Source: an uncultured Ectothiorhodospiraceae bacterium
GTDB lineage: Bacteria; Pseudomonadota; Gammaproteobacteria; SZUA-152
DNA length: 64,000 nt
Direction of reading: 5' to 3'
NCBI GenBank assembly: GCA_964401355.1
Contig: CAYNYJ010000005.1
Location: 4,361-68,360 of the forward strand
The position numbers were made by a program, and so were the translations under genes. Positions within the stretch are counted from its first letter, which is position 1. Every line of letters begins with the position of its first letter. Below the pieces are notes generated by a model. That model ran no database searches and was not told the DNA's origin. It was given only the letters and a program-made list of their open reading frames with translations. This document shows positions 31-50,716 of the stretch, one piece after another.

Positions 31-735
31 TCATGACATGCTGTCAAGCACACGCCGCACCAGCAACAAACCGCAGCCGAAGGCCTTGGAGCGACCTATA
101 CCATTCATCAATGCCTGTTGGAATAAATCGGCATCTTCCACAGTGAGCAACCCAGCATAGTCCAGCGTGCTGTAACGAATGGGGGTTCCTCGTGTATTTT
201 TAACAGCCCGATGCTGGTCGTAACCTTCAACACCAACGTCTCCCTTCCGAAAGGAAAAACCGTTTTTTTCGGCACGTGATTGTAACCATGCCAGCCCCGC
301 TTCTTCGATGATATTTGTCAGTGGTGTCCGTTCAGATATCGACAATTTTTTATACCCCGTGCGATGTTTGAGGTCCATCACCACATCGTGTCGATGCTGT
401 CGGCCGCTTTCATCCCGGCGCGTGACTACGGGGTTAGCCCGCAAGGTGAATGCCAAACGCTGACCCCTGAGAATAACCGGTCGATACTCTTTGGTTTCAA
501 TCTGCCAGACTCCATCGTCGTGTTGCGGCAACCGGTCGGACAACAGGTAAAAACGTGGAAAACCACCATTGGACTTTTCACGCCGAAACAGAAAGTCACG
601 TTTGGCATCGGGATCAGTTTCAAACAAGCGCCACAAATGTTGATGTTCACGATAACCGTTGGCGCACATTTCCTGCGCCAGTCGATTGGCATTGACGCTA
701 TTTGGATCAATGGATACACGACTGAAATAATTCAT
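31..735 (-). CDS. cas6e: CRISPR endoribonuclease Cas6e (CasE/Cse3), type I-E
   Basis: 234-aa ORF with motifs LWRLF..ARDFLFR, FRLRANP and C-terminal GIGRSKAFGCGLL typical of Cas6e. It is last in the cas3-cse1-cse2-cas7-cas5-cas6e order and overlaps the cas5 stop by 4 nt. Confidence 0.8.
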   Translation of the reverse strand: MNYFSRVSIDPNSVNANRLAQEMCANGYREHQHLWRLFETDPDAKRDFLFRREKSNGGFPRFYLLSDRLPQHDDGVWQIETKEYRPVILRGQRLAFTLRANPVVTRRDESGRQHRHDVVMDLKHRTGYKKLSISERTPLTNIIEEAGLAWLQSRAEKNGFSFRKGDVGVEGYDQHRAVKNTRGTPIRYSTLDYAGLLTVEDADLFQQALMNGIGRSKAFGCGLLLVRRVLDSMS

Positions 736-1469
736 CCCTGCGCCTCCGTCACGGTTTCCGAAAAATAGAATTCATCCCGTTCCGCAAACTGCCACCGCGC
801 CCGGCTCAATGACTGGTCGCGGCGCGGATACACCATGCTGGCCGACATACCTGCACTGTCATCCGTCAGTTGTTCCCAGTAGTAACCGCGTTGTGCGGTT
901 GGCTTGATCGGTAACAGCAGTTCGTCCTCGGGAAAACTAACGTCATCAAACGCCGACTTAAGACTCGTCGCATCTAACAACTGCGGACACAGCGGCAATG
1001 CCAGCGGGCAGGCTTTGCGCCCAAGATATAATTGCAATTGCGGATGCAGCAATGCCGCTTTTATATCTGTTAACGAATAAGGTGCCACATCATTTCCAAT
1101 CCACAGCGCAACCACATAACGTGCATCCATGCGGTAATCACGTGACGAAAGAATGGTGTTGAGTTCGGGGTTTCGCAATTCATCACGACGAGTAAAGAAC
1201 ACCGCCTTGCCCTTGGCTGGAGGAACTTGCGTGGTGTGGTAGTCGCGCAGCAATTCGCCCGGGGCATCGACACGCACACCGAACCCATACCCGGCAGTTA
1301 TATCGCGATGCACAGCTTCTTCATCACGGCGAATGCCTTTGGCCGCCGCCAGCAAACCTAGAATCGCAGACTTGGAGGGATGATTCGCGGTCGGGCGCTG
1401 TTCACCCACGGCCACATTTCCCCAAGAGGCCATCGGCCCGTAGAGTTGAAATAATAGAAATTGCCTCAT
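732..1469 (-). CDS. cas5: Cascade subunit Cas5e (CasD)
   Basis: The ORF track starts at 1613 and would overlap cas7. The internal Met at 1469 gives MRQFLLFQLYGPMASWG, the canonical Cas5e N-terminus, 4 nt after the cas7 stop. Confidence 0.8.
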   Translation of the reverse strand: MRQFLLFQLYGPMASWGNVAVGEQRPTANHPSKSAILGLLAAAKGIRRDEEAVHRDITAGYGFGVRVDAPGELLRDYHTTQVPPAKGKAVFFTRRDELRNPELNTILSSRDYRMDARYVVALWIGNDVAPYSLTDIKAALLHPQLQLYLGRKACPLALPLCPQLLDATSLKSAFDDVSFPEDELLLPIKPTAQRGYYWEQLTDDSAGMSASMVYPRRDQSLSRARWQFAERDEFYFSETVTEAQG

Positions 1470-1473
1470 GGCC

Positions 1474-2511
1474 CTATTCCGCTGTCGCGGCATTGATGAT
1501 ATTTGCCAGACTACCTTGACCACCTTGCACGTCCATCGTGATTCGCGCGTCCGCACAGGGACCGTAAGCGTTATCCATTTTTTCCACGGCATCTTCGAGA
1601 CTGGCGGTCGCACTGCTTAACATGTCCGTGCCTGCAATCGGTTTCAAAAAAGCAGCCGCCAACGAACGAGGTTGCTGGTTGCCAGTTTCACACAATACAT
1701 ACGAGGCACGCGCACGTGAGGCAAAACTGTTTTGTTTGCCCGTGGGTGCAACCGTCGTCGCCGCTTCAATCAATGCAGCAAGGGTTTTATTGGTCAGCTC
1801 AGCATCATCACCCAGGTTTTCTTTTAACAGCGCACGATCAATACAGATGTACTGGTAAAACAGACCCGCAGCAAATTCCGTTTCGCCCATGTGTCCCGCA
1901 CCCAGATCTTCTTCACCCGTGTTCAGGTCATCCACCGCAGTAAAAAAATCATCTTCCACCGTGACTTTGTGAACGCTGATCGCATGGGCAACCTGACAGG
2001 CGGCTTCGGTATTAAAAGCAGGGCTGGAAGCCAACATGCGACCGAACAAGGCAATATCCGCCGCGCTATGTTGCTTGCGCAGAAGTTTCAATTCATCGGC
2101 TTCCGGTTCACTACCGCGTTCGGCCAGTATCGTGATCAATTCATTAATGGCGGTTTCTTCTTCCGGGCTGAAATGGGCTAACTGTTCAATATCCACCGAA
2201 TCTTTTTTTAGCTTGCCAAACACAGCGGCAATGGACTTGGCCCAGTCGGTGGCCTTTTTTTCTGCAACGCCTTTTTCGACCAGTGATTTAAAAATTTTCT
2301 GCCCCATTGATTTAGTGCGTGTACCCACGTGGCCTTTAAGTGCATTTTCGAAAACTTCAGATTTTCGCCAGGCGCGTTTAAGACTTTGAGAGGAAACACG
2401 CAGGCGTGGCACGCCACCCATCATCGCGGTTTTAGGCCGACCCAGATCATCACGATTAAGATTAGCGGGCGGATACGAGGTCAACAAATGCAGTTGAATG
2501 AAACGACTCAT
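1474..2511 (-). CDS. cas7: Cascade backbone subunit Cas7e (CasC)
   Basis: 345 aa. The N-terminus MSRFIQLHLLTSYPPANLNRDDLGRPK is the hallmark CasC start. An AAGGAG SD lies upstream. Confidence 0.9.
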   Translation of the reverse strand: MSRFIQLHLLTSYPPANLNRDDLGRPKTAMMGGVPRLRVSSQSLKRAWRKSEVFENALKGHVGTRTKSMGQKIFKSLVEKGVAEKKATDWAKSIAAVFGKLKKDSVDIEQLAHFSPEEETAINELITILAERGSEPEADELKLLRKQHSAADIALFGRMLASSPAFNTEAACQVAHAISVHKVTVEDDFFTAVDDLNTGEEDLGAGHMGETEFAAGLFYQYICIDRALLKENLGDDAELTNKTLAALIEAATTVAPTGKQNSFASRARASYVLCETGNQQPRSLAAAFLKPIAGTDMLSSATASLEDAVEKMDNAYGPCADARITMDVQGGQGSLANIINAATAE

Positions 2512-2568
2512 GGGTATTTCTCCTTGTCAGAAAGTTATTTTATTTAGAGACTTTAAAAAACACATTAT

Positions 2569-2641
2569 CGTCATTCTGGCGTAGGCCAGAACCCAGTAGC
2601 CAGCCAATCCCCCCTGGACTCCGGCCTACGCCGGAGTGACG
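2569..2641. repeat. REP-like imperfect palindrome (cgtcattctggcgtaggcc ... ggcctacgccggagtgacg) inside the Cascade operon
   Basis: Two inverted arms of about 19 nt (17/19 matches) flank about 35 nt in the unusually long 155-bp cse2-cas7 intergenic spacer. It shares the ccggcctacgccgg core with the dispersed MITE family in this window. Confidence 0.5.
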
Positions 2642-2665
2642 AAAAAATAATCAGTTAATACTTTG

Positions 2666-3160
2666 TTAAGCAGATTTCTTTTCAGGCACATTTGGAAAGT
2701 AATCGAAGGCCCAGCGTTTTCGTTCACCATCGCCCCAGTAATAAACCGACTGAGCCAAATCAAATGGGTTCGCTTTTTTATCCATCAAACCCAATACACG
2801 AATCAATGCACCATATAAATCCCGGCGATCGCGTTGCAATAAACGGCGAAAACGTAGCTCGCTTACAACAGGCGGATCGCCTGCCATTTGCCCTGCCAGT
2901 GTCTTGCGTGAATCAAGTGTACGAACATGAGCCAGCAATCCGGCAATCGCGGCGATGCGCATTTCCCAGCCGTCCCGCTCATCTTTCATCAATGGCCGAA
3001 CACTATTACACAGGCGATGAAAGGCCGACACCATCACCACTTCATCCGGTGATTTACAGCGGCGTAACTGCGCACGTCCGCCCTTGTCTTGCTCAAGGTT
3101 TTGCCAGAATTTACTGAGTTCCTTACCTAGAGGGGAATCAGAATCAAATTTCTTGCTCAT
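2666..3160 (-). CDS. cse2: Cascade small subunit Cse2 (CasB)
   Basis: 164-aa ORF between cse1 and cas7. Size and position fit Cse2. Its 3' end overlaps the cse1 stop by 4 nt. Confidence 0.75.
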   Translation of the reverse strand: MSKKFDSDSPLGKELSKFWQNLEQDKGGRAQLRRCKSPDEVVMVSAFHRLCNSVRPLMKDERDGWEMRIAAIAGLLAHVRTLDSRKTLAGQMAGDPPVVSELRFRRLLQRDRRDLYGALIRVLGLMDKKANPFDLAQSVYYWGDGERKRWAFDYFPNVPEKKSA

Positions 3161-4761
3161 GCCGTTTTCTCCTTTTTGTCGGGTAACTGCAATAACTTTT
3201 TCATTTTTTTCGAATACAACAAATTGCGCAATTTGCGATGAGCCATAGCAATGCGGCGCGGATTTGTTACTGACACATCCCCACGCGCCGCCCAGTAGTC
3301 GAACAATGCCATCGCTGCTTTCACTAACTCGCTATGCCAGGAATTCAACACGGCAATGCCATCTCCTCCGGATTCAAGTTCATCGCGCAACTGCTGCGAA
3401 GCATGAAAGAAACTGTTTTCTGTATGCTGAAAAAAGGCCTCGATAATAAATGAGGTATCGCCTTTGGCATCACCCGGTCGCTTGAACCAGGCATCTTTCA
3501 CTGTGCTGCGCACAAACCCCGAAACCTCTATCGCCGCAGTTACCAGCGACTGCGCACGCTCGATAAAAATGGTTCGAATATTTTCGTCCAAGAAATAAAG
3601 GGGATAGGTAGTTTCGTACCAGCAACGAGCTTTCATGTTGTCCATGTCATAACCAAAGGCCCACAGTCGCAGTTGCAGTATTTTCTCTGGGTTACGTTTA
3701 TTGAAAGCGGTGATCACCCGAGCTGCATCACCTAACTCCTCATCAGCAAGAAAACGTAACCAGTGACGGTAACTCATGCCGCCCGGTTGCGGATGCCGGG
3801 GAATAGGCGTGTTGTCTTTTTTATCAAAACTATGCGGACTCAGCGGATGCTTCCACGGGCCGTTGTAATTGACACCGTAGTTTTGGGTGACGTATTGCGA
3901 CACCAGTCGGTCGCTTTCCACGCCGCAAATATCGCATTCACCCTCGCGGGCATTTTCCCAGTCCAGCCGAATCCGGCGCGGCATGGCCCAGTACATTTGC
4001 AGCGGGTTCACGTCAGCAGGGTAGGTATCTCGTCCACCGTGTTTGGAATCACTGCTACGAGTCGCCGCCATCCACGGAAAAATATCTTCGTCGGTTTGTT
4101 TGTCCGCACCATCAGTCAACGACTCGAAATCGCGGCGGCGCAGCACGTTCAGCCAGACATTGCGCCACAGGGTTTCGGGCAAGCCAGCACTATCCTGTGA
4201 GTCCACGATAGCCAAAGTCGTCAACGGCCCACCGCCCCGCAACGAAGTACGATGCCCTGCCCCGCCACTGGGGGCGTTGGTCTGCAACGTGAACAATGCG
4301 CTGGCAGCGCAAACCGGACACAACACTTCCACGCCGCCACGCTTGATAAAATGATCCGCATTATTACGCAGAGTGTTGGCACCCGGGGATTCAATTAACA
4401 GAGCATCGATAGGCTTGGTATCGCCTTGCAGTTCATCAAAATCCTGCATAAAGCGCGGGCCGTCATTGTCCAAATTAAAGGCATGTTGCAAGGGCATAAA
4501 TTTTTCTTTCAGGATATTGGGGGACGGTGCCGTTTCCAGCCAGGTTAACCAGTCTTCATTTCTTGCGTCTTCCGGCGGCATGGCCGTCTGCAACAGACCA
4601 ATGAGGAATTGCATCAGCGCGCCATTGAAATCCGCTCGCGGTGCATTCAGCGCAACGATGGGGTTATCTTCGTGGCCATCGGTTATCTGCCAGGGGGCGA
4701 TCATTTCCTTCGTCCCGCTGGCGCGACGGACTGACAACCAATTAACTGTGATTAGATCCAT
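3157..4761 (-). CDS. cse1: Cascade large subunit Cse1 (CasA/Cas8e)
   Basis: The ORF track starts at 4845. The internal Met at 4761 gives MDLITVNWLSVRR, which resembles the E. coli CasA start MNLLIDNWIPVR. About 534 aa. Confidence 0.8.
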   Translation of the reverse strand: MDLITVNWLSVRRASGTKEMIAPWQITDGHEDNPIVALNAPRADFNGALMQFLIGLLQTAMPPEDARNEDWLTWLETAPSPNILKEKFMPLQHAFNLDNDGPRFMQDFDELQGDTKPIDALLIESPGANTLRNNADHFIKRGGVEVLCPVCAASALFTLQTNAPSGGAGHRTSLRGGGPLTTLAIVDSQDSAGLPETLWRNVWLNVLRRRDFESLTDGADKQTDEDIFPWMAATRSSDSKHGGRDTYPADVNPLQMYWAMPRRIRLDWENAREGECDICGVESDRLVSQYVTQNYGVNYNGPWKHPLSPHSFDKKDNTPIPRHPQPGGMSYRHWLRFLADEELGDAARVITAFNKRNPEKILQLRLWAFGYDMDNMKARCWYETTYPLYFLDENIRTIFIERAQSLVTAAIEVSGFVRSTVKDAWFKRPGDAKGDTSFIIEAFFQHTENSFFHASQQLRDELESGGDGIAVLNSWHSELVKAAMALFDYWAARGDVSVTNPRRIAMAHRKLRNLLYSKKMKKLLQLPDKKEKTA

Positions 4762-4939
4762 CTGTCTTTTCTCCCTGCGCTTGATATATGGGATCGTTAA
4801 CTGCCTCCGTAGCCTGCCATTCAAGCACAATAAAAGTACCGTCATCTAATTCGACCCGCCCCAAACTTCCCCTGCGCCGCATTTCTAAAATCAGCTGCTC
4901 AGGGCGTGATAAAAAATGGGTTGCCAATATTTCTAACAT
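4742..4939 (-). CDS. hypothetical 65-aa protein, first cistron of the Cascade operon; candidate CreT-like toxin or unknown small Cas-associated protein
   Basis: ATG preceded by a perfect AGGAGG SD with 5-nt spacing. The ORF overlaps the cse1 start codon by 20 nt, an arrangement consistent with translational coupling. I recognise no family. It lies directly downstream of the psi-spacer target site. Confidence 0.45.
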   Translation of the reverse strand: MLEILATHFLSRPEQLILEMRRRGSLGRVELDDGTFIVLEWQATEAVNDPIYQAQGEKTDGSNHS

Positions 4940-4998
4940 TACCGCCTCCTAATTCCACGATCATCCAGATGCCGCCACAGGGGTGAAACAATAATTGC

Positions 4999-5023
4999 AA
5001 GTATATATGGAAATATTTTTGAA
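4999..5023 (+). promoter_or_regulatory. AAG PAM (4999-5001) plus 22-nt partial protospacer matching the psi-spacer; putative Cascade operator over the small-ORF/Cascade promoter
   Basis: Target aag|tatatatggaaatatttttgaa versus psi-spacer tatatatggaagtatttggaac. The 11 PAM-proximal nt match exactly, and 17 of 22 match overall. It abuts a candidate extended -10 (TGcAATTAT, minus strand, 4991-4999) for the small ORF. Confidence 0.45.
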
Positions 5024-5042
5024 GCGTGTTGTGTTTATTTCA

Positions 5043-5051
5043 TGTTAAAAT
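5043..5051 (+). promoter_or_regulatory. candidate extended -10 (TGtTAAAAT) for the creR/creA-like RNA
   Basis: A TGnTAAAAT motif lies 4 nt upstream of psi-repeat 1, so a transcript would start at or just before the mini-array. Called from sequence only. Confidence 0.3.
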
Positions 5052-5054
5052 TTT

Positions 5055-5134
5055 AACTTCCCCTTCGAGAAGGGGATGAACCATATATATGGAAGTATTT
5101 GGAACCCGTTCCCCACACCCGTGGGGTTTGTACA
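5055..5134 (+). ncRNA. CRISPR-like mini-array psiR1-psiS-psiR2 (creA/creR-like crRNA-resembling RNA)
   Basis: psiR1 (5055-5083) AACTTCCCCTTCGAGAAGGGGATGAACCA versus the I-E consensus GAGTTCCCCGCGCCAGCGGGGATAAACCG. The TTCCCC/GGGG stem and the AT(G/A)AACC 5'-handle are conserved. The psi-spacer is 22 nt (5084-5105). psiR2 (5106-5134) CCGTTCCCCACACCCGTGGGGTTTGTACA keeps the hairpin with a degenerate 3' end. Its orientation matches the transcribed sense of I-E repeats. Confidence 0.5.
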
Positions 5135-5152
5135 GGGGCTAACGCCCCTGTA
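5131..5152 (+). terminator. perfect 9-bp-stem hairpin tacaggggc-taac-gcccctgta spanning the cas3 stop codon
   Basis: A palindrome followed by CTTCTTCTTCTTCC on the plus strand. It may terminate the creR-like RNA. The cas3 stop codon (cta, 5139-5141) sits in the loop. Confidence 0.3.
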
Positions 5153-7922
5153 CTTCTTCTTCTTCCTTCATCAAACCTATTTCCGGGCTGTAATAAAATG
5201 CCATCGTTGCACCGTCCTTGCTGAGCGCCATTCCTTTCCACAAACCATCGTCAACGGCCACCAATGGCAACAACACTCCCCACTTGCCTTTGGCGGGTAG
5301 CCGTTCGCGGCAGGTTTCGATTATCTCGGCAGTGATATTTTCAGTGGCTGCCTCACTGGCGATCAGGTCGCACCGCATTTGCACGGCGCTACGTGGCCAG
5401 GCGTGATCAATTTCGTTGATCCAGGGTTCCAGGTTTTTTCCATTCCAGCGGGCAAGATAGACGGTGGTGGTTTCCACTTCGGCGAGTCGGGTCGGTGTCT
5501 TTGTCTCATCCCACCAGCGGTTTTCATCTTCGCCGTTATAGCCGTCTGCAATATTCAGCGTGTTGAGTGCGCCCAAACTGCCACTGGCACTGGCGCGTCC
5601 TTCTGCTTCCATTGAGGCTGCATCCAGGGCCGGTGGATATTCTGTGCAGGCGTAGACGCCTTCGATCAAGCGACGGGCATCGTCGGGCATGCGGAAACCG
5701 CCGCGTTTTTTAAGCAGATGGGCAGTGCGCCAAATTTGCCCATGATGGGGGTAAACATAACTGGTGCCCTTTAAATAATCCTTGAACCAATTGGCGCTGA
5801 CATCACCGCCCGGGTCGGGGCCATTGACGACCAGCACGGGCTCGCCGCGCTCACCACGCTGATGACGGTGCAAACGCCCGGCACGCTGGATGATAAGGTC
5901 GACGGGTGCGAGGTCGGTGATCAGCAAATCAAAATCGAGATCCAGGGATTGCTCTACGACCTGGGTGGCGATGAGTACCTGTCCCCGGCGCTCGTCAGCG
6001 GTACTTTTCGGGCCGAAACGTTTGACGATGCGATTTTCAATATCCAGCCGATCCTGCATGGCGTAGCGGGCATGGAACAAATCAATAGGCCAATCCGGGT
6101 GCTGGGCGCGCAAATGGTCGAAGGATTCACGGGCATCGCCAACAGTATTGCGTATCCAGCAGGCGCACTGCCCGGTATTAACAGCAGCTACCAACCGATT
6201 TTCGACATCCGCAAGCCCATGCACCATTTCCACTCTGACTTTACGACGCACACTGTCACGGGTGGCCACTGTTGTTTCATCAAGATTTTCTGAATGCACA
6301 CGGGTGAACAGTGGATAGTCATCTTCACCCGTTTTGTTCAATTCTCGATTAGCCCAGCCTGCTCCCTTGGCAAAGGCATTGACCAGCTGTTGGCGTTGTT
6401 TGGTGGGCAAGGTTGCGGAAAGTAGAATGGCACTGCCGCCACTGGCGGCATGGGCTTGCAACAGATCGCGCAACAGGCGATTCATGTAGTCATCACAGGC
6501 ATGGACTTCATCCACCACCAATAACTTACCGAGCAAACCCAACAAGCGAAGAGACTGATGGCGCGACGGCAATATGGCCATCAACGCCTGATCAATAGTG
6601 CCCACACCGACTTCCGCCAGCAGTGCCTTCTTTCGGTTATCCGCCAGCCAAGCACCGCAATGACTGCCTGCGGTTTCGGTGTTGTCGCCATAGTCTGATT
6701 TCTCAGTTGTTGTGATGGCGGTTACCGACGACATAATCGCTTGTCGGAAATTTGCCGAAAGATCGCGTGCTCCGTGAGCCAGTACCAACGAAGGTTTAAT
6801 GTCTCCCTGAAATAAACGTTGATAAACTTTGGCCATGCGGTCATACATGGCATTGGCAGTGGCCATGGTGGGCAACCCAAAATAGAAGCCCTGTGAATTC
6901 CCGGCCGCCATCATGCGATGCACCAGCATCAGCGCCGCCTCGGTCTTTCCTGCGCCGGTCACGTCTTCGAGGATAAATAACTGCGGGCCTGCTGGCAGAG
7001 GTAGCTGTTCACAATAGGCTTGCAAAGGTGTCGGCGTGAATATTGAAGTTGCTGTTGGTGAAAATAGGTCTTGAAAACTCATGCTACCGGCAACTTGTGA
7101 TGGCAAAAGCTCTGTGGCGGAAATAGCAGTCTCTGCGCGTGAAAGGGCTATTTGCCAATAATCAGGAAGCGATTGTGTACTGTCTGTAAAGGGAAAATAA
7201 TCGGTATTGGAACCCAGCCAATCACACAACACTGCAAATCCGGCCAGCCACCAAGACGCCGTCTGGCTTATCTCAAGAGCGGGTTGTGGAAATGGCGTTG
7301 CGGGCGGCAAAAGCAAGCTCGCAACATCGGCAACAAATTCACGAGCAGCGTCAACATCCTGGGGCTCGAAATAATCACGGCACATTCCTTCCGGTTTGGG
7401 TGGCACACCGTGATGACCAATCATGGCCTGCATCCAGTATTCCAGGCCTGTGGGCAGATTGCCGGTAAGCAAACCACCCGACCTTTGTTTTGACAATAAA
7501 CCCAGCTGACGAAAGCGCTTACGTAGATGATCTTGCCAAAGCATGAATCCCAGATTGTCATGTCGCGGAGAATCACTGCATGCCCGGTCTCGTTGTTGCA
7601 ACGCCCCAAACAGATCAGGCCGAAGGTTTTGAAAACTGGCAGAAAATTTTCCAATGTCATGTAAAGTTAAGAAAAAGGGCAACCAGTCTAAAAGCTCCAC
7701 CGCCTCCAGCCCTGTCAATCGCACCAAGGACTCGCGCAAGTGGTGGTGCCTTCTCAACAACACGACCCCAACCGCCGCCACATCCAAGCAGTGAAACGGC
7801 AACAGATGATAAGGGGCACCGTCTTCATCCGTCTTCCGGGCCTTGCCCCAATAACGAAAATAACGGGCCTTTTTGTCGGTAGCTGTATTTGCGGGAACGT
7901 CCATATTCCTTTGTTTTAACAT
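5139..7922 (-). CDS. cas3: Cas3 HD nuclease/helicase, type I-E
   Basis: 927 aa with an N-terminal HD domain (LHDIGKFSASFQ) and a Walker A motif (GAGKTEAAL). Confidence 0.9.
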   Translation of the reverse strand: MLKQRNMDVPANTATDKKARYFRYWGKARKTDEDGAPYHLLPFHCLDVAAVGVVLLRRHHHLRESLVRLTGLEAVELLDWLPFFLTLHDIGKFSASFQNLRPDLFGALQQRDRACSDSPRHDNLGFMLWQDHLRKRFRQLGLLSKQRSGGLLTGNLPTGLEYWMQAMIGHHGVPPKPEGMCRDYFEPQDVDAAREFVADVASLLLPPATPFPQPALEISQTASWWLAGFAVLCDWLGSNTDYFPFTDSTQSLPDYWQIALSRAETAISATELLPSQVAGSMSFQDLFSPTATSIFTPTPLQAYCEQLPLPAGPQLFILEDVTGAGKTEAALMLVHRMMAAGNSQGFYFGLPTMATANAMYDRMAKVYQRLFQGDIKPSLVLAHGARDLSANFRQAIMSSVTAITTTEKSDYGDNTETAGSHCGAWLADNRKKALLAEVGVGTIDQALMAILPSRHQSLRLLGLLGKLLVVDEVHACDDYMNRLLRDLLQAHAASGGSAILLSATLPTKQRQQLVNAFAKGAGWANRELNKTGEDDYPLFTRVHSENLDETTVATRDSVRRKVRVEMVHGLADVENRLVAAVNTGQCACWIRNTVGDARESFDHLRAQHPDWPIDLFHARYAMQDRLDIENRIVKRFGPKSTADERRGQVLIATQVVEQSLDLDFDLLITDLAPVDLIIQRAGRLHRHQRGERGEPVLVVNGPDPGGDVSANWFKDYLKGTSYVYPHHGQIWRTAHLLKKRGGFRMPDDARRLIEGVYACTEYPPALDAASMEAEGRASASGSLGALNTLNIADGYNGEDENRWWDETKTPTRLAEVETTTVYLARWNGKNLEPWINEIDHAWPRSAVQMRCDLIASEAATENITAEIIETCRERLPAKGKWGVLLPLVAVDDGLWKGMALSKDGATMAFYYSPEIGLMKEEEEVQGR

Positions 7923-10841: not shown

Positions 10842-11091
10842 CAGTGCTGCCCCGTTAACTCTTTGTTCGTCATGCTGGCGAAGGCCGGCATCCAGAAAGT
10901 CGTTGCACCACCAAAAGTAGGCGCTCTTAGGCGAAAGTAAGCGCTCTTAGGCGACCACTGAATTCCGACCTACGCCGGAATGACGGGAAGGGGTTGTCTA
11001 GGTTCATGTCTCCAATACTACTGAATGCGCTATACACCAAGTGTGCTGCCAGTTGCAGCAGAACAAGATCCAAGTTAACGGGACAGCACTG
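10842..11091. mobile_element. MITE-like repeat, copy A (TIR CAGTGCTGTCCCGTTAAC)
   Basis: A 250-bp element bounded by 18-bp terminal inverted repeats. It is about 90% identical to copy B at 13476-13726. Confidence 0.6.
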
Positions 11092-13475: not shown

Positions 13476-13726
13476 GCAGTGCTGTCCCGTTAACTCTTTG
13501 TTCGTCATGCTGGCGAAGGCCGGCATCCAGAAAGTCGTCGCACCACCAAAAGTAGGCGCTCTTAGGCGAAAGTAGGCACTCCCAGGCGACCACTGGATTC
13601 CGGCCTACGCCGGAATGACAGGAGGGGGTTGTCTAGGTTCATGTCTCCAATACTACTGAATGCGCTATACACCAAGTGTGCTGCCAGTCGCAGCAGAGCA
13701 AGATTCAAGTTAACGGGACAGCACTG
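13476..13726. mobile_element. MITE-like repeat, copy B
   Basis: Same TIRs and internal sequence as copy A. Confidence 0.6.
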
Positions 13727-29539: not shown

Positions 29540-29734
29540 TAACGCACAACATCATTTGACGCATCGACAAGAGCAGCCATTGACCCGCCCCCGGACGTGA
29601 ATAACGCACAAGCAGTGAACAACACCCTCGGTCAGAAGGCTGAATGGGTTATTGATCAACAAGACTCCTTGTTTATTACCGTCATTCTGCGCAGTACACC
29701 ACTCCCCTGATTGCCCTGGAGTGATTCCCAAGTG

Positions 29735-30007
29735 CCCTTGAGTCATTTCTTAGTGCCCCGGAACGATTTCTTAGTGCCCTTAGGTCATTTCTTAGTCACC
29801 TTGAGCCATTTCTTAGTGCCCTTAGGTCATTTCTTAGTCACCTGGAACGATTTCTTAGTGTCCTTAGATCATTTTTTAGTGACCTGGAATGATTTCTTAG
29901 TGCCCTTAGGTCATTTTTTAGTGACCTGGAACAATTTCTTAATGCCCCTGGGTCATTTCCCAACCACACAGAACGATTTCCGAGTGCCCCTGAACCCTTT
30001 CCGAACC
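29735..30007. repeat. 13 x 21-bp tandem repeat (conserved core ATTTCTTAGTG plus 10-nt variable half) with an alternating 42-bp higher-order period
   Basis: The units are contiguous with no spacers. Two variable-half classes (cccttaggtc and acctggaacg) alternate, producing recurring AGGTCA-N8-TGACCT palindromes. Confidence 0.8.
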
Positions 30008-30540: not shown

Positions 30541-30794
30541 CTATGTTGTAATTCGTTGTTTTGCGTGGCCTACAACGTGATTTGTGGAATTAAGACATGA
30601 ATAACCAGCAACCTCTCCCATCACAGCCTGCCCTGCGTAGCGTTTTGGGTATTCCGGCGAAATGCCGGAATCCAGTGGTCGCCTCAGAGCGCCTACTTTC
30701 GCCTAAGAGCGCCTACTTTTGGTGGTGGTTCAACGACCTCCTGAATACCGGTCTGCGCCGGTATGACGGATATAAAGTTAACGGGACAGCAGTG
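30541..30794. mobile_element. MITE-family variant, copy D (inverted relative to copies A and B)
   Basis: It ends in gttaacgggacagcagtg. The internal part is the reverse complement of the left half of copies A and B. Confidence 0.5.
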
Positions 30795-50417: not shown

Positions 50418-50500
50418 GCAGGAACAGGGTTTAAACCTGTGACCTTACAGCGGTTACGCCTAAAAAGCCAAGCCTGAACCTCAGACACTCCACACATACC
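50418..50500 (-). pseudogene. decayed tRNA-fMet copy 1 (3'-half remnant TAAGGTCACAGGTTTAAACCCTGTTCCTGC)
   Basis: A diverged T-arm/acceptor remnant and a degenerate 5' half. No CCA end and no acceptor pairing. Confidence 0.5.
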
Positions 50501-50525
50501 ATTCTCTACAAAACCAGTATTCGGT

Positions 50526-50613
50526 TGGTAGCGGGGACAGGATTTGAACCTGTGACCTTCAGCGGCTGCGCCGGTAAAAGCCGAGCCCGACCCTCGGGCG
50601 CTCCACACATACC
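50526..50613 (-). pseudogene. decayed tRNA-fMet copy 2 (intact 35-nt 3' half, mutated 5' half)
   Basis: The 3' half GAAGGTCACAGGTTCAAATCCTGTCCCCGCTACCA is identical to the functional gene. The 5' half retains only GTGGAGC and TCGGGCTC islands, and the acceptor stem is lost. Confidence 0.55.
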
Positions 50614-50639
50614 ATTTCTCTACAAAACCAGTATTCGGT

Positions 50640-50716
<77 letters not shown>

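What the first reader, a model, noticed from the sequence alone, without database searches (positions are those of the whole stretch)
4999..5152. CRISPR-like mini-array (psi-repeat / psi-spacer / psi-repeat) in the cas3-cse1 intergenic region, with a PAM-flanked partial target in the adjacent promoter: a candidate CreTA/CreR-type Cascade-guided regulatory module in a type I-E locus
Seen in sequence: 5055-5083 (AACTTCCCCTTCGAGAAGGGGATGAACCA) has the full I-E repeat architecture. That is a TTCCCC/GGGG hairpin stem followed by an AT(G/A)AACC 5'-handle, against the E. coli consensus GAGTTCCCCGCGCCAGCGGGGATAAACCG. 5106-5134 keeps the TTCCCC-loop-GGGG hairpin with a degenerate 3' end. Between them lies a 22-nt psi-spacer, tatatatggaagtatttggaac. 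At 5002-5023 sits tatatatggaaatatttttgaa, 53 bp upstream in the same intergenic region and immediately 3' of AAG (4999-5001), the canonical I-E PAM. The 11 PAM-proximal (seed) nucleotides match the psi-spacer exactly, and 17 of 22 match overall. The array itself carries CCA where the PAM would be, so it cannot self-target. The target abuts a candidate extended -10 for a divergent, SD-equipped 65-aa ORF that is co-oriented with and overlaps cse1. Established knowledge: in CreTA (type I-B Haloarcula) and CreR (Cas-regulating RNA) systems, a crRNA-like RNA guides Cascade to bind a promoter through a seed match with a PAM but without full complementarity. That binding represses a toxin gene or the cas operon without triggering Cas3. 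Inference: this is such a module. It either autoregulates the Cascade operon (CreR-like) or holds the small ORF in check (CreTA-like addiction module). Caveat: a 22-nt psi-spacer is shorter than the 32-nt I-E norm.
Basis: partly seen in the sequence, partly recalled or inferred. Interest (0 to 1): 0.92.

Follow-up and report, generated by a model that had tools for sequence, protein, structure and literature searches.

The report
Cascade-guiding mini-CRISPR between cas3 and cse1
A degenerate two-repeat mini-CRISPR in a type I-E locus most likely makes a guide RNA that parks the Cascade complex on a nearby promoter region to repress a small gene and the Cascade genes; it is well supported by comparative evidence, but this kind of element is already known.

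Summary
In 43 of 43 related type I-E loci with at least 200 nt between cas3 and cse1, the same antisense mini-array follows the cas3 stop. None of 88 loci with a gap under 100 nt has one. In 36 non-redundant loci (21 unrelated psi-spacer families), the best match of each psi-spacer in its own intergenic region was found without using the PAM. It is flanked by AAG in 35 of 36 loci, against 2.7% in cross-locus controls.

Pairing is kept at positions 1-5, 7-11 and 13-15(17). It is at chance level at positions 6 and 12 and decays from 16 to chance by 19. This is the footprint of Cascade binding without a full R-loop.

The CreR/CreA-type reading is therefore supported. It is a new member of a known kind: Salmonella I-E CreR, the I-E mini-arrays of Shmakov et al., and Citrobacter rodentium I-E CreTA with a translated small toxin.

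Two points stay open. The 65-aa ORF is a real gene (dN/dS 0.11-0.38) whose model resembles Phd/YefM antitoxins, not a membrane toxin. The window lacks the -10 box that relatives have beside the target.

The parts
5139..7922 (-). cas3 (927 aa). Its stop codon lies inside the hairpin at 5130-5153.
   Evidence: NCBIfam Cas3 models, E 2.5e-154.
5130..5166 (+). Terminator-like hairpin GTACAGGGGC-TAAC-GCCCCTGTAC followed by TTCTTCTTCTTCC. This is the likely end of the mini-array transcript. It overlaps the cas3 stop.
   Evidence: A hairpin at this position is present in nearly all related mini-array loci.
5106..5134 (+). psiR2. The stem CCCCAC (5111-5116) pairs with GTGGGG (5121-5126). This part would give the 3' hairpin of the guide. 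The handle part is degenerate.
   Evidence: 19 of 21 hairpin bases match a native repeat, but only 2 of 8 handle bases do.
5084..5105 (+). psi-spacer, 22 nt: TATATATGGAAGTATTTGGAAC.
   Evidence: Its length falls in the 20-22 nt class seen in 17 related loci.
5055..5083 (+). psiR1. The stem 5059-5065 pairs with 5070-5076. The 8-nt handle ATGAACCA lies at 5076-5083. Predicted Cas6e cut is after G5075, giving a predicted mature RNA of 51 nt at 5076-5126.
   Evidence: the hairpin is kept through different stem sequences in relatives. The handle is ATGAACCG or ATGAACCA in 26 of 38 loci.
5043..5051 (+). Extended -10 TGTTAAAAT, the candidate promoter of the mini-array. The transcription start is expected near 5057-5059.
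   Evidence: It is invariant in WIN, L002, L004 and L083. TGnTAnnnT lies within 24 nt upstream of psiR1 in 18 of 38 loci, and TAnnnT in 35 of 38.
4999..5023 (+). PAM AAG (4999-5001) followed by the target. Positions 1-11 and 13-17 pair with the psi-spacer. Positions 12 and 18 are mismatched, and there is no pairing beyond 18.
4995..5000 (-). TTGCAA, a -35-like hexamer that overlaps the PAM. In relatives it is the -35 of a good sigma-70 promoter facing the small ORF. In this window no -10 follows at 16-18 nt.
   Evidence: 17 of 25 same-strand loci have their best promoter starting 0-12 nt after the PAM. One search shows a 7-nt gap in WIN where L083 and L002 have TATATT and TATTAT.
4742..4950 (-). 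SD AGGAGG (4945-4950) and a 65-aa ORF (4939-4742), small-protein family A. It is the first gene downstream of the target.
   Evidence: called as a gene; dN/dS 0.11-0.38. Phd/YefM-like model.
3157..4761 (-). cse1/cas8e (534 aa from the ATG at 4761). It overlaps the small ORF by 20 nt.
   Evidence: the model starts at residue 29-30 of the longer ORF. (gene call in L082).
31..3160 (-). Rest of the Cascade operon: cse2 2666-3160, cas7 1474-2511, cas5e 732-1469 and cas6e 31-735.

Best explanation
The mini-array is a CRISPR-derived regulatory gene of the CreR/CreA type.

How it most likely works:
1. It is transcribed on the plus strand, antisense to the cas operon, from its own extended -10 promoter (5043-5051). 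It ends at the hairpin that overlaps the cas3 stop.
2. Cas6e cuts at the base of the psiR1 and psiR2 hairpins. This gives a guide of about 51 nt: AUGAACCA, then 22 nt, then the 3' hairpin. The guide is loaded into Cascade.
3. Cascade recognises the AAG PAM at 4999-5001 and pairs with only about 17 bp, positions 1-5, 7-11 and 13-17. That is enough to stay bound but too little for a locked full R-loop and Cas3 recruitment.
4. The bound complex sits on the divergent control region between the mini-array and the operon that starts with the small ORF. It lowers transcription of the small ORF and, through it, of cse1-cse2-cas7-cas5-cas6e. It possibly lowers transcription of the mini-array as well.
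5. When Cascade is titrated by crRNAs or blocked by anti-CRISPRs, repression is relieved.

Shown here: the anatomy, the relation to native repeats, the conservation, the covariation, and the position-specific constraint.

Inferred, not shown: transcription, processing, binding, repression, and escape from cleavage.
For: Anatomy and chance tests.

Native repeats of relatives, and the complementary decay of psiR1 and psiR2.

Distribution across 139 related loci:
- A mini-array is present in 43 of 43 loci with a cas3-cse1 gap of at least 200 nt. This counts L107 and L134, which were confirmed by eye.
- It is present in 0 of 88 loci with a gap under 100 nt.

Target search without PAM and with all 18 positions weighted equally:
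- The set is 36 loci in 21 spacer families.
- AAG flanks the best hit in 35 of 36 loci, against 32 of 1192 in cross-family controls.
- Match frequency is 97-100% at positions 1-5 and 7-8.
- It is 86-97% at positions 9-11.
- It is 83-94% at positions 13-15.
- It is 22% at position 6 and 11% at position 12.
- It is 14-28% at positions 19-23.

Covariation inside the window's own clade: position 2 is A/A in WIN and L004 but G/G in L002, L083 and L022. Positions 11, 15 and 16 change together in L022.

The psiR1 hairpin is kept through different stem sequences, and a -10 box lies upstream of it.

In relatives the target abuts or overlaps the -35 or -10 of a good promoter that faces the small ORF.

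Experimental precedent for I-E:
- Salmonella CreR represses PcasA about 8.6-fold.
- I-E guides with 21-24 nt psi-spacers are processed and active.
- An I-F1 mini-array guide represses its target without cleaving it.
Against: - There are no expression or binding data for this organism.
- The genuine array of this genome lies outside the window and could not be retrieved. The repeat comparison therefore rests on relatives with 45-81% Cse1 identity.
- In this window no sigma-70-like promoter is recognisable for the small ORF or cse1. The -10 box that L083, L002 and L004 have 17 nt after the PAM-overlapping -35 is missing here, where WIN has a 7-nt gap. What is repressed in this particular locus is therefore less clear than in its relatives.
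- Two relatives, L030 and L131, show that such modules can decay.
Confidence: 0.8

Rival explanations
1. CreTA-type addiction or anti-anti-CRISPR guard. Under this reading the 65-aa ORF is a toxin whose promoter is kept shut by Cascade plus the mini-array RNA, so loss or inhibition of Cascade kills or arrests the cell. Autoregulation of Cascade would be secondary.
For: - Every mini-array locus examined carries a small SD-equipped ORF between the target and cse1. There are at least five unrelated families, and most are single-helix hydrophobic or amphipathic peptides of 30-45 aa that look like type I toxins.
- The closest Cse1 relatives, L084 and L091 (80-81% identity), carry such a peptide with a different spacer-target pair. 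The slot therefore behaves like an exchangeable cassette.
- In L004 and L022 the family-A ORF stays next to the mini-array although inserts of about 190 nt and 1.3 kb separate it from cse1.
- C. rodentium I-E has this architecture with a 96-bp ORF shown to be a translated toxin.
Against: - The window's ORF is not hydrophobic (GRAVY -0.43).
- It has no hit in Pfam, PADLOC or PHROGs.
- It is translationally coupled to cse1, so it would be made whenever Cascade is made.
- Toxicity is untested.
Confidence: 0.3
2. The mini-array RNA guides Cascade mainly to other sites in the genome, as scaRNA-like regulation of non-cas genes. The nearby match would be secondary.
For: Only about 15-17 bp are needed, so further targets cannot be excluded. 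Shmakov et al. make the same caveat.
Against: - Within the 64-kb window the site at 4999-5023 is the only AAG-flanked site with at least 11 of 15 constrained matches.
- In 35 of 36 relatives the best match in the adjacent intergenic region carries the PAM and covaries with the spacer.
- The rest of the genome was not available.
Confidence: 0.08
3. A relic or a coincidence. Under this reading the element is a decayed fragment of an inverted CRISPR array, or ordinary terminator hairpins after cas3 plus a chance AT-rich direct repeat, with no guide function.
For: - The hairpins lie directly after the cas3 stop, and one overlaps it.
- The repeated 17-mer is AT-rich.
- Decayed versions exist in L030 and L131.
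Against: - On the cas3 strand the hairpins are not followed by a T run (one search finds the terminator only on the plus strand).
- Selective conservation of the handle in psiR1 and of the hairpin in psiR2, the PAM in 35 of 36 loci, the covariation across 21 spacer families, and the relaxation at positions 6 and 12 cannot arise without selection for Cascade binding.
Confidence: 0.03

Closest known systems
CreR of Salmonella enterica type I-E (Liu et al., bioRxiv 10.1101/2023.03.10.532045)
   Same: - It is a degenerate mini-CRISPR between cas3 and casA.
- psiR1 keeps the 8-nt 5' handle and psiR2 keeps the 3' hairpin.
- It has a partial, seed-side match to a site with an AAG PAM upstream of casA.
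- It represses PcasA in a Cascade-dependent way, and crRNA load or Acr relieves the repression.
   Different: - The Salmonella match is 15 consecutive nt. Here it is 11 + 5 nt, interrupted at position 12.
- The handle is ATAAACCG there and ATGAACCA here.
- Salmonella was described as having no accompanying toxin gene. Here an SD-equipped 65-aa gene lies between the target and cse1.
- Nothing has been tested experimentally here.
CreTA of Citrobacter rodentium type I-E (Basta, Campbell et al., Nat Microbiol 2025, PMC12055562)
   Same: - It lies in the cas3/casA intergenic region.
- The crRNA-like gene is on the strand opposite to a small ORF.
- The target is adjacent to the ORF's promoter and carries a type I-E PAM.
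- The ORF has an RBS and must be translated.
   Different: - The PAM is ATG there and AAG here.
- The ORF is 31 aa there and 65 aa here.
- The window's ORF has a Phd/YefM-like predicted fold and overlaps cse1.
- Toxicity and Cascade dependence are shown there and untested here.
Regulatory mini-arrays of type I-E, I-F1, I-D and I-B loci (Shmakov et al., bioRxiv 10.1101/2023.03.03.530964 / PMC10120712)
   Same: - They lie in long cas3-cas8 intergenic regions and were found in about 19% of bacterial I-E loci.
- They are transcribed opposite to cas3.
- The spacer is partly complementary to the cas8 promoter region, with an AAG PAM.
- Mismatches at every sixth position were noted.
   Different: - That survey used complete genomes and annotated ORFs. 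It reports cargo genes mainly for I-D.
- It does not describe small unannotated ORFs between the target and cas8e in I-E.
CreTA of Haloarcula hispanica (I-B) and CrePA of Acinetobacter (I-F)
   Same: A crRNA-like antitoxin directs Cascade or Csy to the promoter of an adjacent toxin gene inside the cas locus.
   Different: The toxins are a tRNA-sequestering small RNA (I-B) and a KilA-N protein (I-F). The subtype, PAM and position in the locus all differ.
Phd/YefM-family antitoxins (for the 65-aa ORF only)
   Same: - The predicted topology is strand-helix-helix-strand-strand followed by a flexible tail.
- The top 32 Foldseek PDB hits (E 0.008-0.4, probability 0.80-1.00, 0.97 or more for the top 20) are all of this family.
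- The gene overlaps the start of the next gene, as antitoxin genes do.
   Different: - There is no sequence-level match to Pfam PhdYeFM at E <= 1, nor to PDB sequences.
- The downstream gene is cse1, not a toxin.
- The model rests on a 3-sequence alignment.

Membership tests
CreR/CreA-type regulatory mini-array (crRNA-like RNA gene) | Two repeat-like sequences flank one spacer-like sequence inside a cas locus, outside the CRISPR array. | tested here: met
   There is no array in the window.
CreR/CreA-type regulatory mini-array (crRNA-like RNA gene) | The repeats derive from the cognate CRISPR repeat. psiR1 keeps the 5'-handle bases and psiR2 keeps the 3' hairpin. | tested here: met
   compared with native repeats of relatives. 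The native repeat of this genome itself was not retrievable.
CreR/CreA-type regulatory mini-array (crRNA-like RNA gene) | There is a partial, seed-side match to a nearby site that carries the cognate PAM. | tested here: met
   AAG plus 15 of 15 constrained positions. AAG flanks the best match in 35 of 36 relatives.
CreR/CreA-type regulatory mini-array (crRNA-like RNA gene) | The target lies in or next to the promoter of cas effector genes or of a toxin gene. | tested here: inconclusive
   This holds for most relatives. In the window only the -35-like TTGCAA is present and no -10 is recognisable.
CreR/CreA-type regulatory mini-array (crRNA-like RNA gene) | The spacer and target are conserved and covary in related loci. 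| tested here: met
   21 spacer families, each with its own target. Paired changes occur within the window's clade.
CreR/CreA-type regulatory mini-array (crRNA-like RNA gene) | The gene is transcribed and processed by Cas6 into a guide, and represses its target in a Cascade-dependent way without cleavage. | not testable with these tools
   Only a predicted promoter, hairpins and terminator are available.
CreTA/CrePA (Cascade-repressed toxin plus crRNA-like antitoxin) | A gene sits directly downstream of the targeted promoter, paired with the mini-array. | tested here: met
   The 65-aa ORF with an SD. It is under purifying selection. A small ORF is present in most of the 36 loci examined.
CreTA/CrePA (Cascade-repressed toxin plus crRNA-like antitoxin) | The product is toxic when derepressed, and Cascade genes cannot be lost unless the toxin is removed. 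| not testable with these tools
   The fold prediction points to an antitoxin-like fold rather than a toxin-like one.
CreTA/CrePA (Cascade-repressed toxin plus crRNA-like antitoxin) | The product is homologous to a known CreT or CreP. | tested here: not met
   No Pfam (including KilA-N), PADLOC or PHROGs hit.
Genuine CRISPR array | Three or more near-identical repeats, spacers of about 32 nt, in the same orientation as the cas operon and downstream of cas2. | tested here: not met
   Here there are two divergent repeats and one 22-nt spacer, antisense, between cas3 and cse1.
Phd/YefM antitoxin family (small ORF) | The N-terminal beta-alpha-alpha-beta-beta dimerisation and DNA-binding fold. | tested here: inconclusive

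The most novel reading that the evidence does not exclude
The cas3-cse1 gap of this type I-E clade may be a cargo slot. In it, a Cascade- and mini-array-controlled promoter drives interchangeable small genes, each cassette carrying its own matching psi-spacer and target.

In most loci the cargo is a single-helix membrane peptide, a likely toxin like C. rodentium CreT. In the window's clade the cargo is a Phd/YefM-like protein of 53-66 aa that is translationally coupled to cse1.

The latter would be a new kind of partner. It could be an antitoxin-like or DNA-binding protein placed under CRISPR-guided control. It might act as a second regulator of the cas operon, or as a factor that binds a Cas protein through its conserved EAxNDP tail.
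Probability: 0.3. Interest if true: 0.6.

Novelty: new member of a known kind. Interest (0 to 1): 0.45.

Why it matters
The element adds an uncultured marine gammaproteobacterial lineage to the list of type I-E systems that use a degenerate mini-CRISPR to control themselves.

The comparative set assembled here gives an unusually clean evolutionary readout of how Cascade reads DNA. It covers 36 loci in 21 independent spacer-target pairs. Five-base segments are under strict constraint, every sixth base is free, and pairing stops at about 17-18 bp.

That is direct evidence from natural sequences for the rule that partial R-loops repress without cleavage.

The strict pairing of the mini-array with varied small ORFs suggests that toxin-guarded or otherwise cargo-carrying I-E loci are far more common than annotation shows. 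These ORFs are too short to be called as genes.

Tried and rejected
- **Source contig.** Exact-protein look-ups for Cas6e and the small ORF gave only contigs of 0.6-1.9 kb. The native array of this genome was not obtained.
- **Rfam.** At gathering thresholds it found nothing in the region.
- **Promoter scan.** The consensus scan found no sigma-70 site in 4700-5400.
- **A third repeat.** A possible third repeat-like piece at 4864-4876 is not conserved in L002 and is treated as chance.
- **Family searches.** Pfam, PADLOC and PHROGs gave no family for any of the small ORFs.
- **Profile against PDB sequences.** It hit only designed repeat proteins by summed weak matches, and these were rejected.
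- **Search of 1.8 billion representatives.** It found three true homologues. The other hits were long repetitive proteins with many weak stretches whose Pfam content is unrelated, and these were rejected as compositional.
- **First structure model.** Its pLDDT of 62 was too weak to use. Only the second model is used.
- **AFDB50 fold library.** It was not available.
- **Phage-borne mimics.** A scan of viral contigs for a mimic of the handle plus seed found none.
- **C. rodentium CreT.** Its sequence is not in the held supplements.
Full report
**1. Setting**

Window 31-7922 carries a type I-E cas cluster on the minus strand:
- cas6e at 31-735
- cas5e at 732-1469
- cas7 at 1474-2511
- cse2 at 2666-3160
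- cse1 at 3157-4761
- a 65-aa ORF at 4742-4939
- cas3 at 5139-7922

The genes orn and rsgA follow. The NCBIfam Cse1 models start at residue 29-30 of the longest ORF. An independent gene call in a short metagenomic contig identical to this part of the window (L082) puts the cse1 start at the ATG at 4761. The small ORF therefore overlaps cse1 by 20 nt. No CRISPR array lies in the window. In relatives the array follows cas2 in the orientation of the cas genes, so here it should lie beyond the left edge.

**2.

Three chance tests agree:
- The hairpin-plus-handle motif occurs once in 64 kb, against 0.01 expected.
- The AAG-flanked site at 4999-5023 is the only one in the window, on either strand, with even 11 of the 15 constrained positions matching the psi-spacer. 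It has 15 of 15.
- As plus-strand RNA, 5052-5166 folds into three separate hairpins: psiR1, psiR2 and a third hairpin followed by UUCUUCUUCUUCC. The z-score is -4.8.

The scan tool reports that third hairpin as the only terminator-like site in the region, and only on the plus strand.

**3. Relation to genuine repeats**

The native array of this genome could not be fetched. Forty arrays in loci found with Cse1 give the repeat GTGTTCCCC-N7-GGGGATGAACCG.

Compared with such a repeat:
- psiR1 keeps 7 of 8 handle bases but 10 of 21 of the rest.
- psiR2 keeps 19 of 21 hairpin bases but 2 of 8 handle bases.

This complementary decay is expected if only one guide is made. psiR1 would supply the 5' handle and a cleavable hairpin, and psiR2 the 3' hairpin. 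The same pattern has been described for CreA and CreR.

**4. The element is a conserved class**

Genome and metagenome scans with Cse1 gave 162 related loci, L002-L081 and L084-L163. In 139 loci both the cas3 end and the cse1 start are visible.

| cas3-cse1 gap | loci | with antisense mini-array |
|---|---|---|
| 200 nt or more | 43 | 43 |
| under 100 nt | 88 | 0 |

Of the 43, 41 were found automatically and L107 and L134 by eye.

Features of these mini-arrays:
- The psiR1 hairpin is kept with many different stem sequences, for example CCCCTTC/GAAGGGG, CCTCAG/CTGAGG and TCTCATAG/CTATGAGA.
- The handle is ATGAACCG or ATGAACCA in 26 of 38 loci and differs by one or two bases in the other 12.
- The 3' octamer of psiR2 is different in almost every locus.
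- psi-spacer lengths fall into two classes, 20-22 nt in 17 loci and 32-34 nt in 19 loci. The 22-nt length noted as a caveat is therefore normal. The gap of about 11-12 nt between the classes equals about two Cas7 steps (my inference).
- Processed and active I-E guides with 21-24 nt psi-spacers have been reported.

**5. Spacer-target covariation**

For 36 non-redundant loci I looked for the best ungapped match of psi-spacer positions 1-18 in the up-to-600 nt upstream of psiR1. Both strands were searched, all positions were weighted equally and the PAM was not used.

The best hit is flanked by AAG in 35 of 36 loci. In 1192 cross-family controls the figure is 32, or 2.7%. The spacers fall into 21 unrelated families, each with its own target.

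Match frequency by position:

| positions | match frequency |
|---|---|
| 1-5 | 97-100% |
| 6 | 22% |
| 7-8 | 100% |
| 9-11 | 86-97% |
| 12 | 11% |
| 13-15 | 83-94% |
| 16-17 | about 58% |
| 18 | 39% |
| 19-23 | 14-28% (chance level) |

In type I-E Cascade every sixth guide base is flipped out and does not pair (established knowledge). Natural selection has therefore kept exactly the bases that Cascade reads, and it stops after three segments.

Paired changes also occur within the window's own clade (WIN, L002, L004, L083, L022):
- Position 2 is A in both spacer and target in WIN and L004. It is G in both in L002, L083 and L022.
- Positions 11, 15 and 16 change together in L022.

This rules out chance, a relic and a simple duplication.

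**6. Control region**

An alignment of WIN, L002, L004 and L083 shows three invariant blocks:
- CAAG plus the target
- TGTTAAAAT (window 5043-5051)
- the psiR1 handle

TGTTAAAAT is an extended -10 on the mini-array strand. It predicts a transcription start at the foot of the psiR1 hairpin. A TAnnnT box lies within 24 nt upstream of psiR1 in 35 of 38 loci, and in 18 it has the TG extension.

Facing the other way, 17 of the 25 loci with the window's target orientation have their best sigma-70-like promoter starting 0-12 nt after the PAM. Examples are CTTGACA-17-TATTCT in L115 and CTTGATA-17-TATGAT in L004. In the 11 loci with the opposite target orientation, the target overlaps the -35 or the -10 in several of them.

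Cascade bound there would occlude the promoter of the small ORF. The guide would pair with the non-template strand of that operon, which is the favourable arrangement for Cascade roadblocks (my own knowledge of type I-E CRISPRi work).

In the window itself the PAM-overlapping TTGCAA (4995-5000) is present. The -10 that L083 and L002 have 17 nt further on is missing, because WIN has a 7-nt gap there in the alignment. No sigma-70 site is found in 4700-5400. What drives the small ORF and cse1 in this locus is therefore not settled. Read-through from cas3 is possible, because the hairpins are not terminator-like on the minus strand.

**7. The small ORF**

The 65-aa ORF has a strong SD and is called as a gene in public records. 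It has homologues at the same position in L002, L004, L022 and L083.

Evidence that it codes for a protein, and where it sits:
- dN/dS is 0.11-0.38 in the six comparisons that are not saturated.
- Only three homologue clusters exist among 1.8 billion representatives.
- No Pfam, PADLOC or PHROGs family matches it.
- In L004 and L022 it stays beside the mini-array, although inserts separate it from cse1.

With a 3-sequence alignment, AlphaFold gives pLDDT 87-91 for residues 1-40, with the order strand-helix-helix-strand-strand and a disordered tail.
- The top 32 Foldseek hits in the PDB are all Phd/YefM-type antitoxins (E 0.008-0.4; probability 0.97 or more for the top 20, 0.80 or more for all 32).

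This is a consistent but not significant lead.

Most other mini-array loci carry unrelated peptides of 30-45 aa with one hydrophobic or amphipathic helix. This includes the closest Cse1 relatives, L084 and L091. An example is MPGLLELIICVIVGVGAFVATKVRSVRINFKD. At least five unrelated small-ORF families occupy this slot.

**8. Comparison with what is known**

- Regulatory mini-arrays in long cas3-cas8 gaps were described by Shmakov et al. in about 19% of bacterial I-E loci. They are transcribed opposite to cas3 and carry AAG-flanked partial targets.
- Liu et al. showed that Salmonella I-E CreR represses PcasA and responds to crRNA load and to Acr.
- Basta, Campbell et al. showed that the C. rodentium cas3/casA gap holds a crRNA-like gene on one strand and, on the other, a 96-bp ORF with promoter and RBS. 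That ORF is a translated, Cascade-repressed toxin.

The window's element has the same architecture, so it is a new member of a known kind.

Two things go beyond those reports:
- the position-resolved constraint profile for I-E across many independent pairs
- the finding that in this clade the mini-array always comes with a small ORF of varied family, one of which looks like a Phd/YefM protein

**9. Verdict**

The most likely mechanism is Cascade-guided, cleavage-free repression of the operon that starts with the small ORF and continues into the Cascade genes. My confidence is about 0.8 for a functional guide and target.

Whether the small protein is a toxin (CreTA-type, about 0.3) or a regulator or antitoxin-like factor is open. 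Interest is moderate, because the evidence is strong but the kind is published.

Noticed in passing
window 4864-4876: AACTTCCCCTGCG inside the small ORF repeats the first 13 nt of psiR1 with one mismatch. It is not conserved in L002, so it is probably chance.
   Followed up: partly
window 5130-5153 and the same position in related loci: A hairpin that overlaps the cas3 stop codon is kept in sequence or in structure in nearly all mini-array loci. On the mini-array strand it is followed by a T/C-rich run. It may terminate both convergent transcripts.
   Followed up: partly
L002-L163 (36 loci): psi-spacer lengths are bimodal, 20-22 nt against 32-34 nt. Pairing to the target ends at about 17-18 nt in both classes.
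   Followed up: yes
L030:3251-3420 and L131:712-914: These are decayed modules. A deletion removed the target and promoter and fused the small peptide ORF to the 3' half of psiR1.
   Followed up: partly
L004:4369-4560 and L022:8701-10001: Inserts lie between the family-A ORF and cse1. L004 has a piece of about 190 nt with inverted GGGAA/TTCCC ends. L022 has 1.3 kb with two ORFs of 170 and 142 aa that have no Pfam match.
   Followed up: partly
L051:8186-8822: Two overlapping ORFs (98 and 127 aa) on the opposite strand lie between cas3 and the mini-array. They could be a toxin-antitoxin-like cargo pair.
   Followed up: no
window 50424-50716: A 114-nt unit repeated 2.2 times overlaps tRNA-Met(CAT) at 50640-50716 on the minus strand. 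These are partial tRNA copies, such as integrating elements leave behind.
   Followed up: no
window 29712-29989: A tandem array with a 42-nt period (84-nt super-period), about 5.5 copies at 87% identity.
   Followed up: no
window 10914-10954, 13549-13589, 30679-30719: Paired 20-nt units related to AAAGTAAGCGCTCTTAGGCG recur at three sites. They look like a REP-like dispersed element.
   Followed up: no
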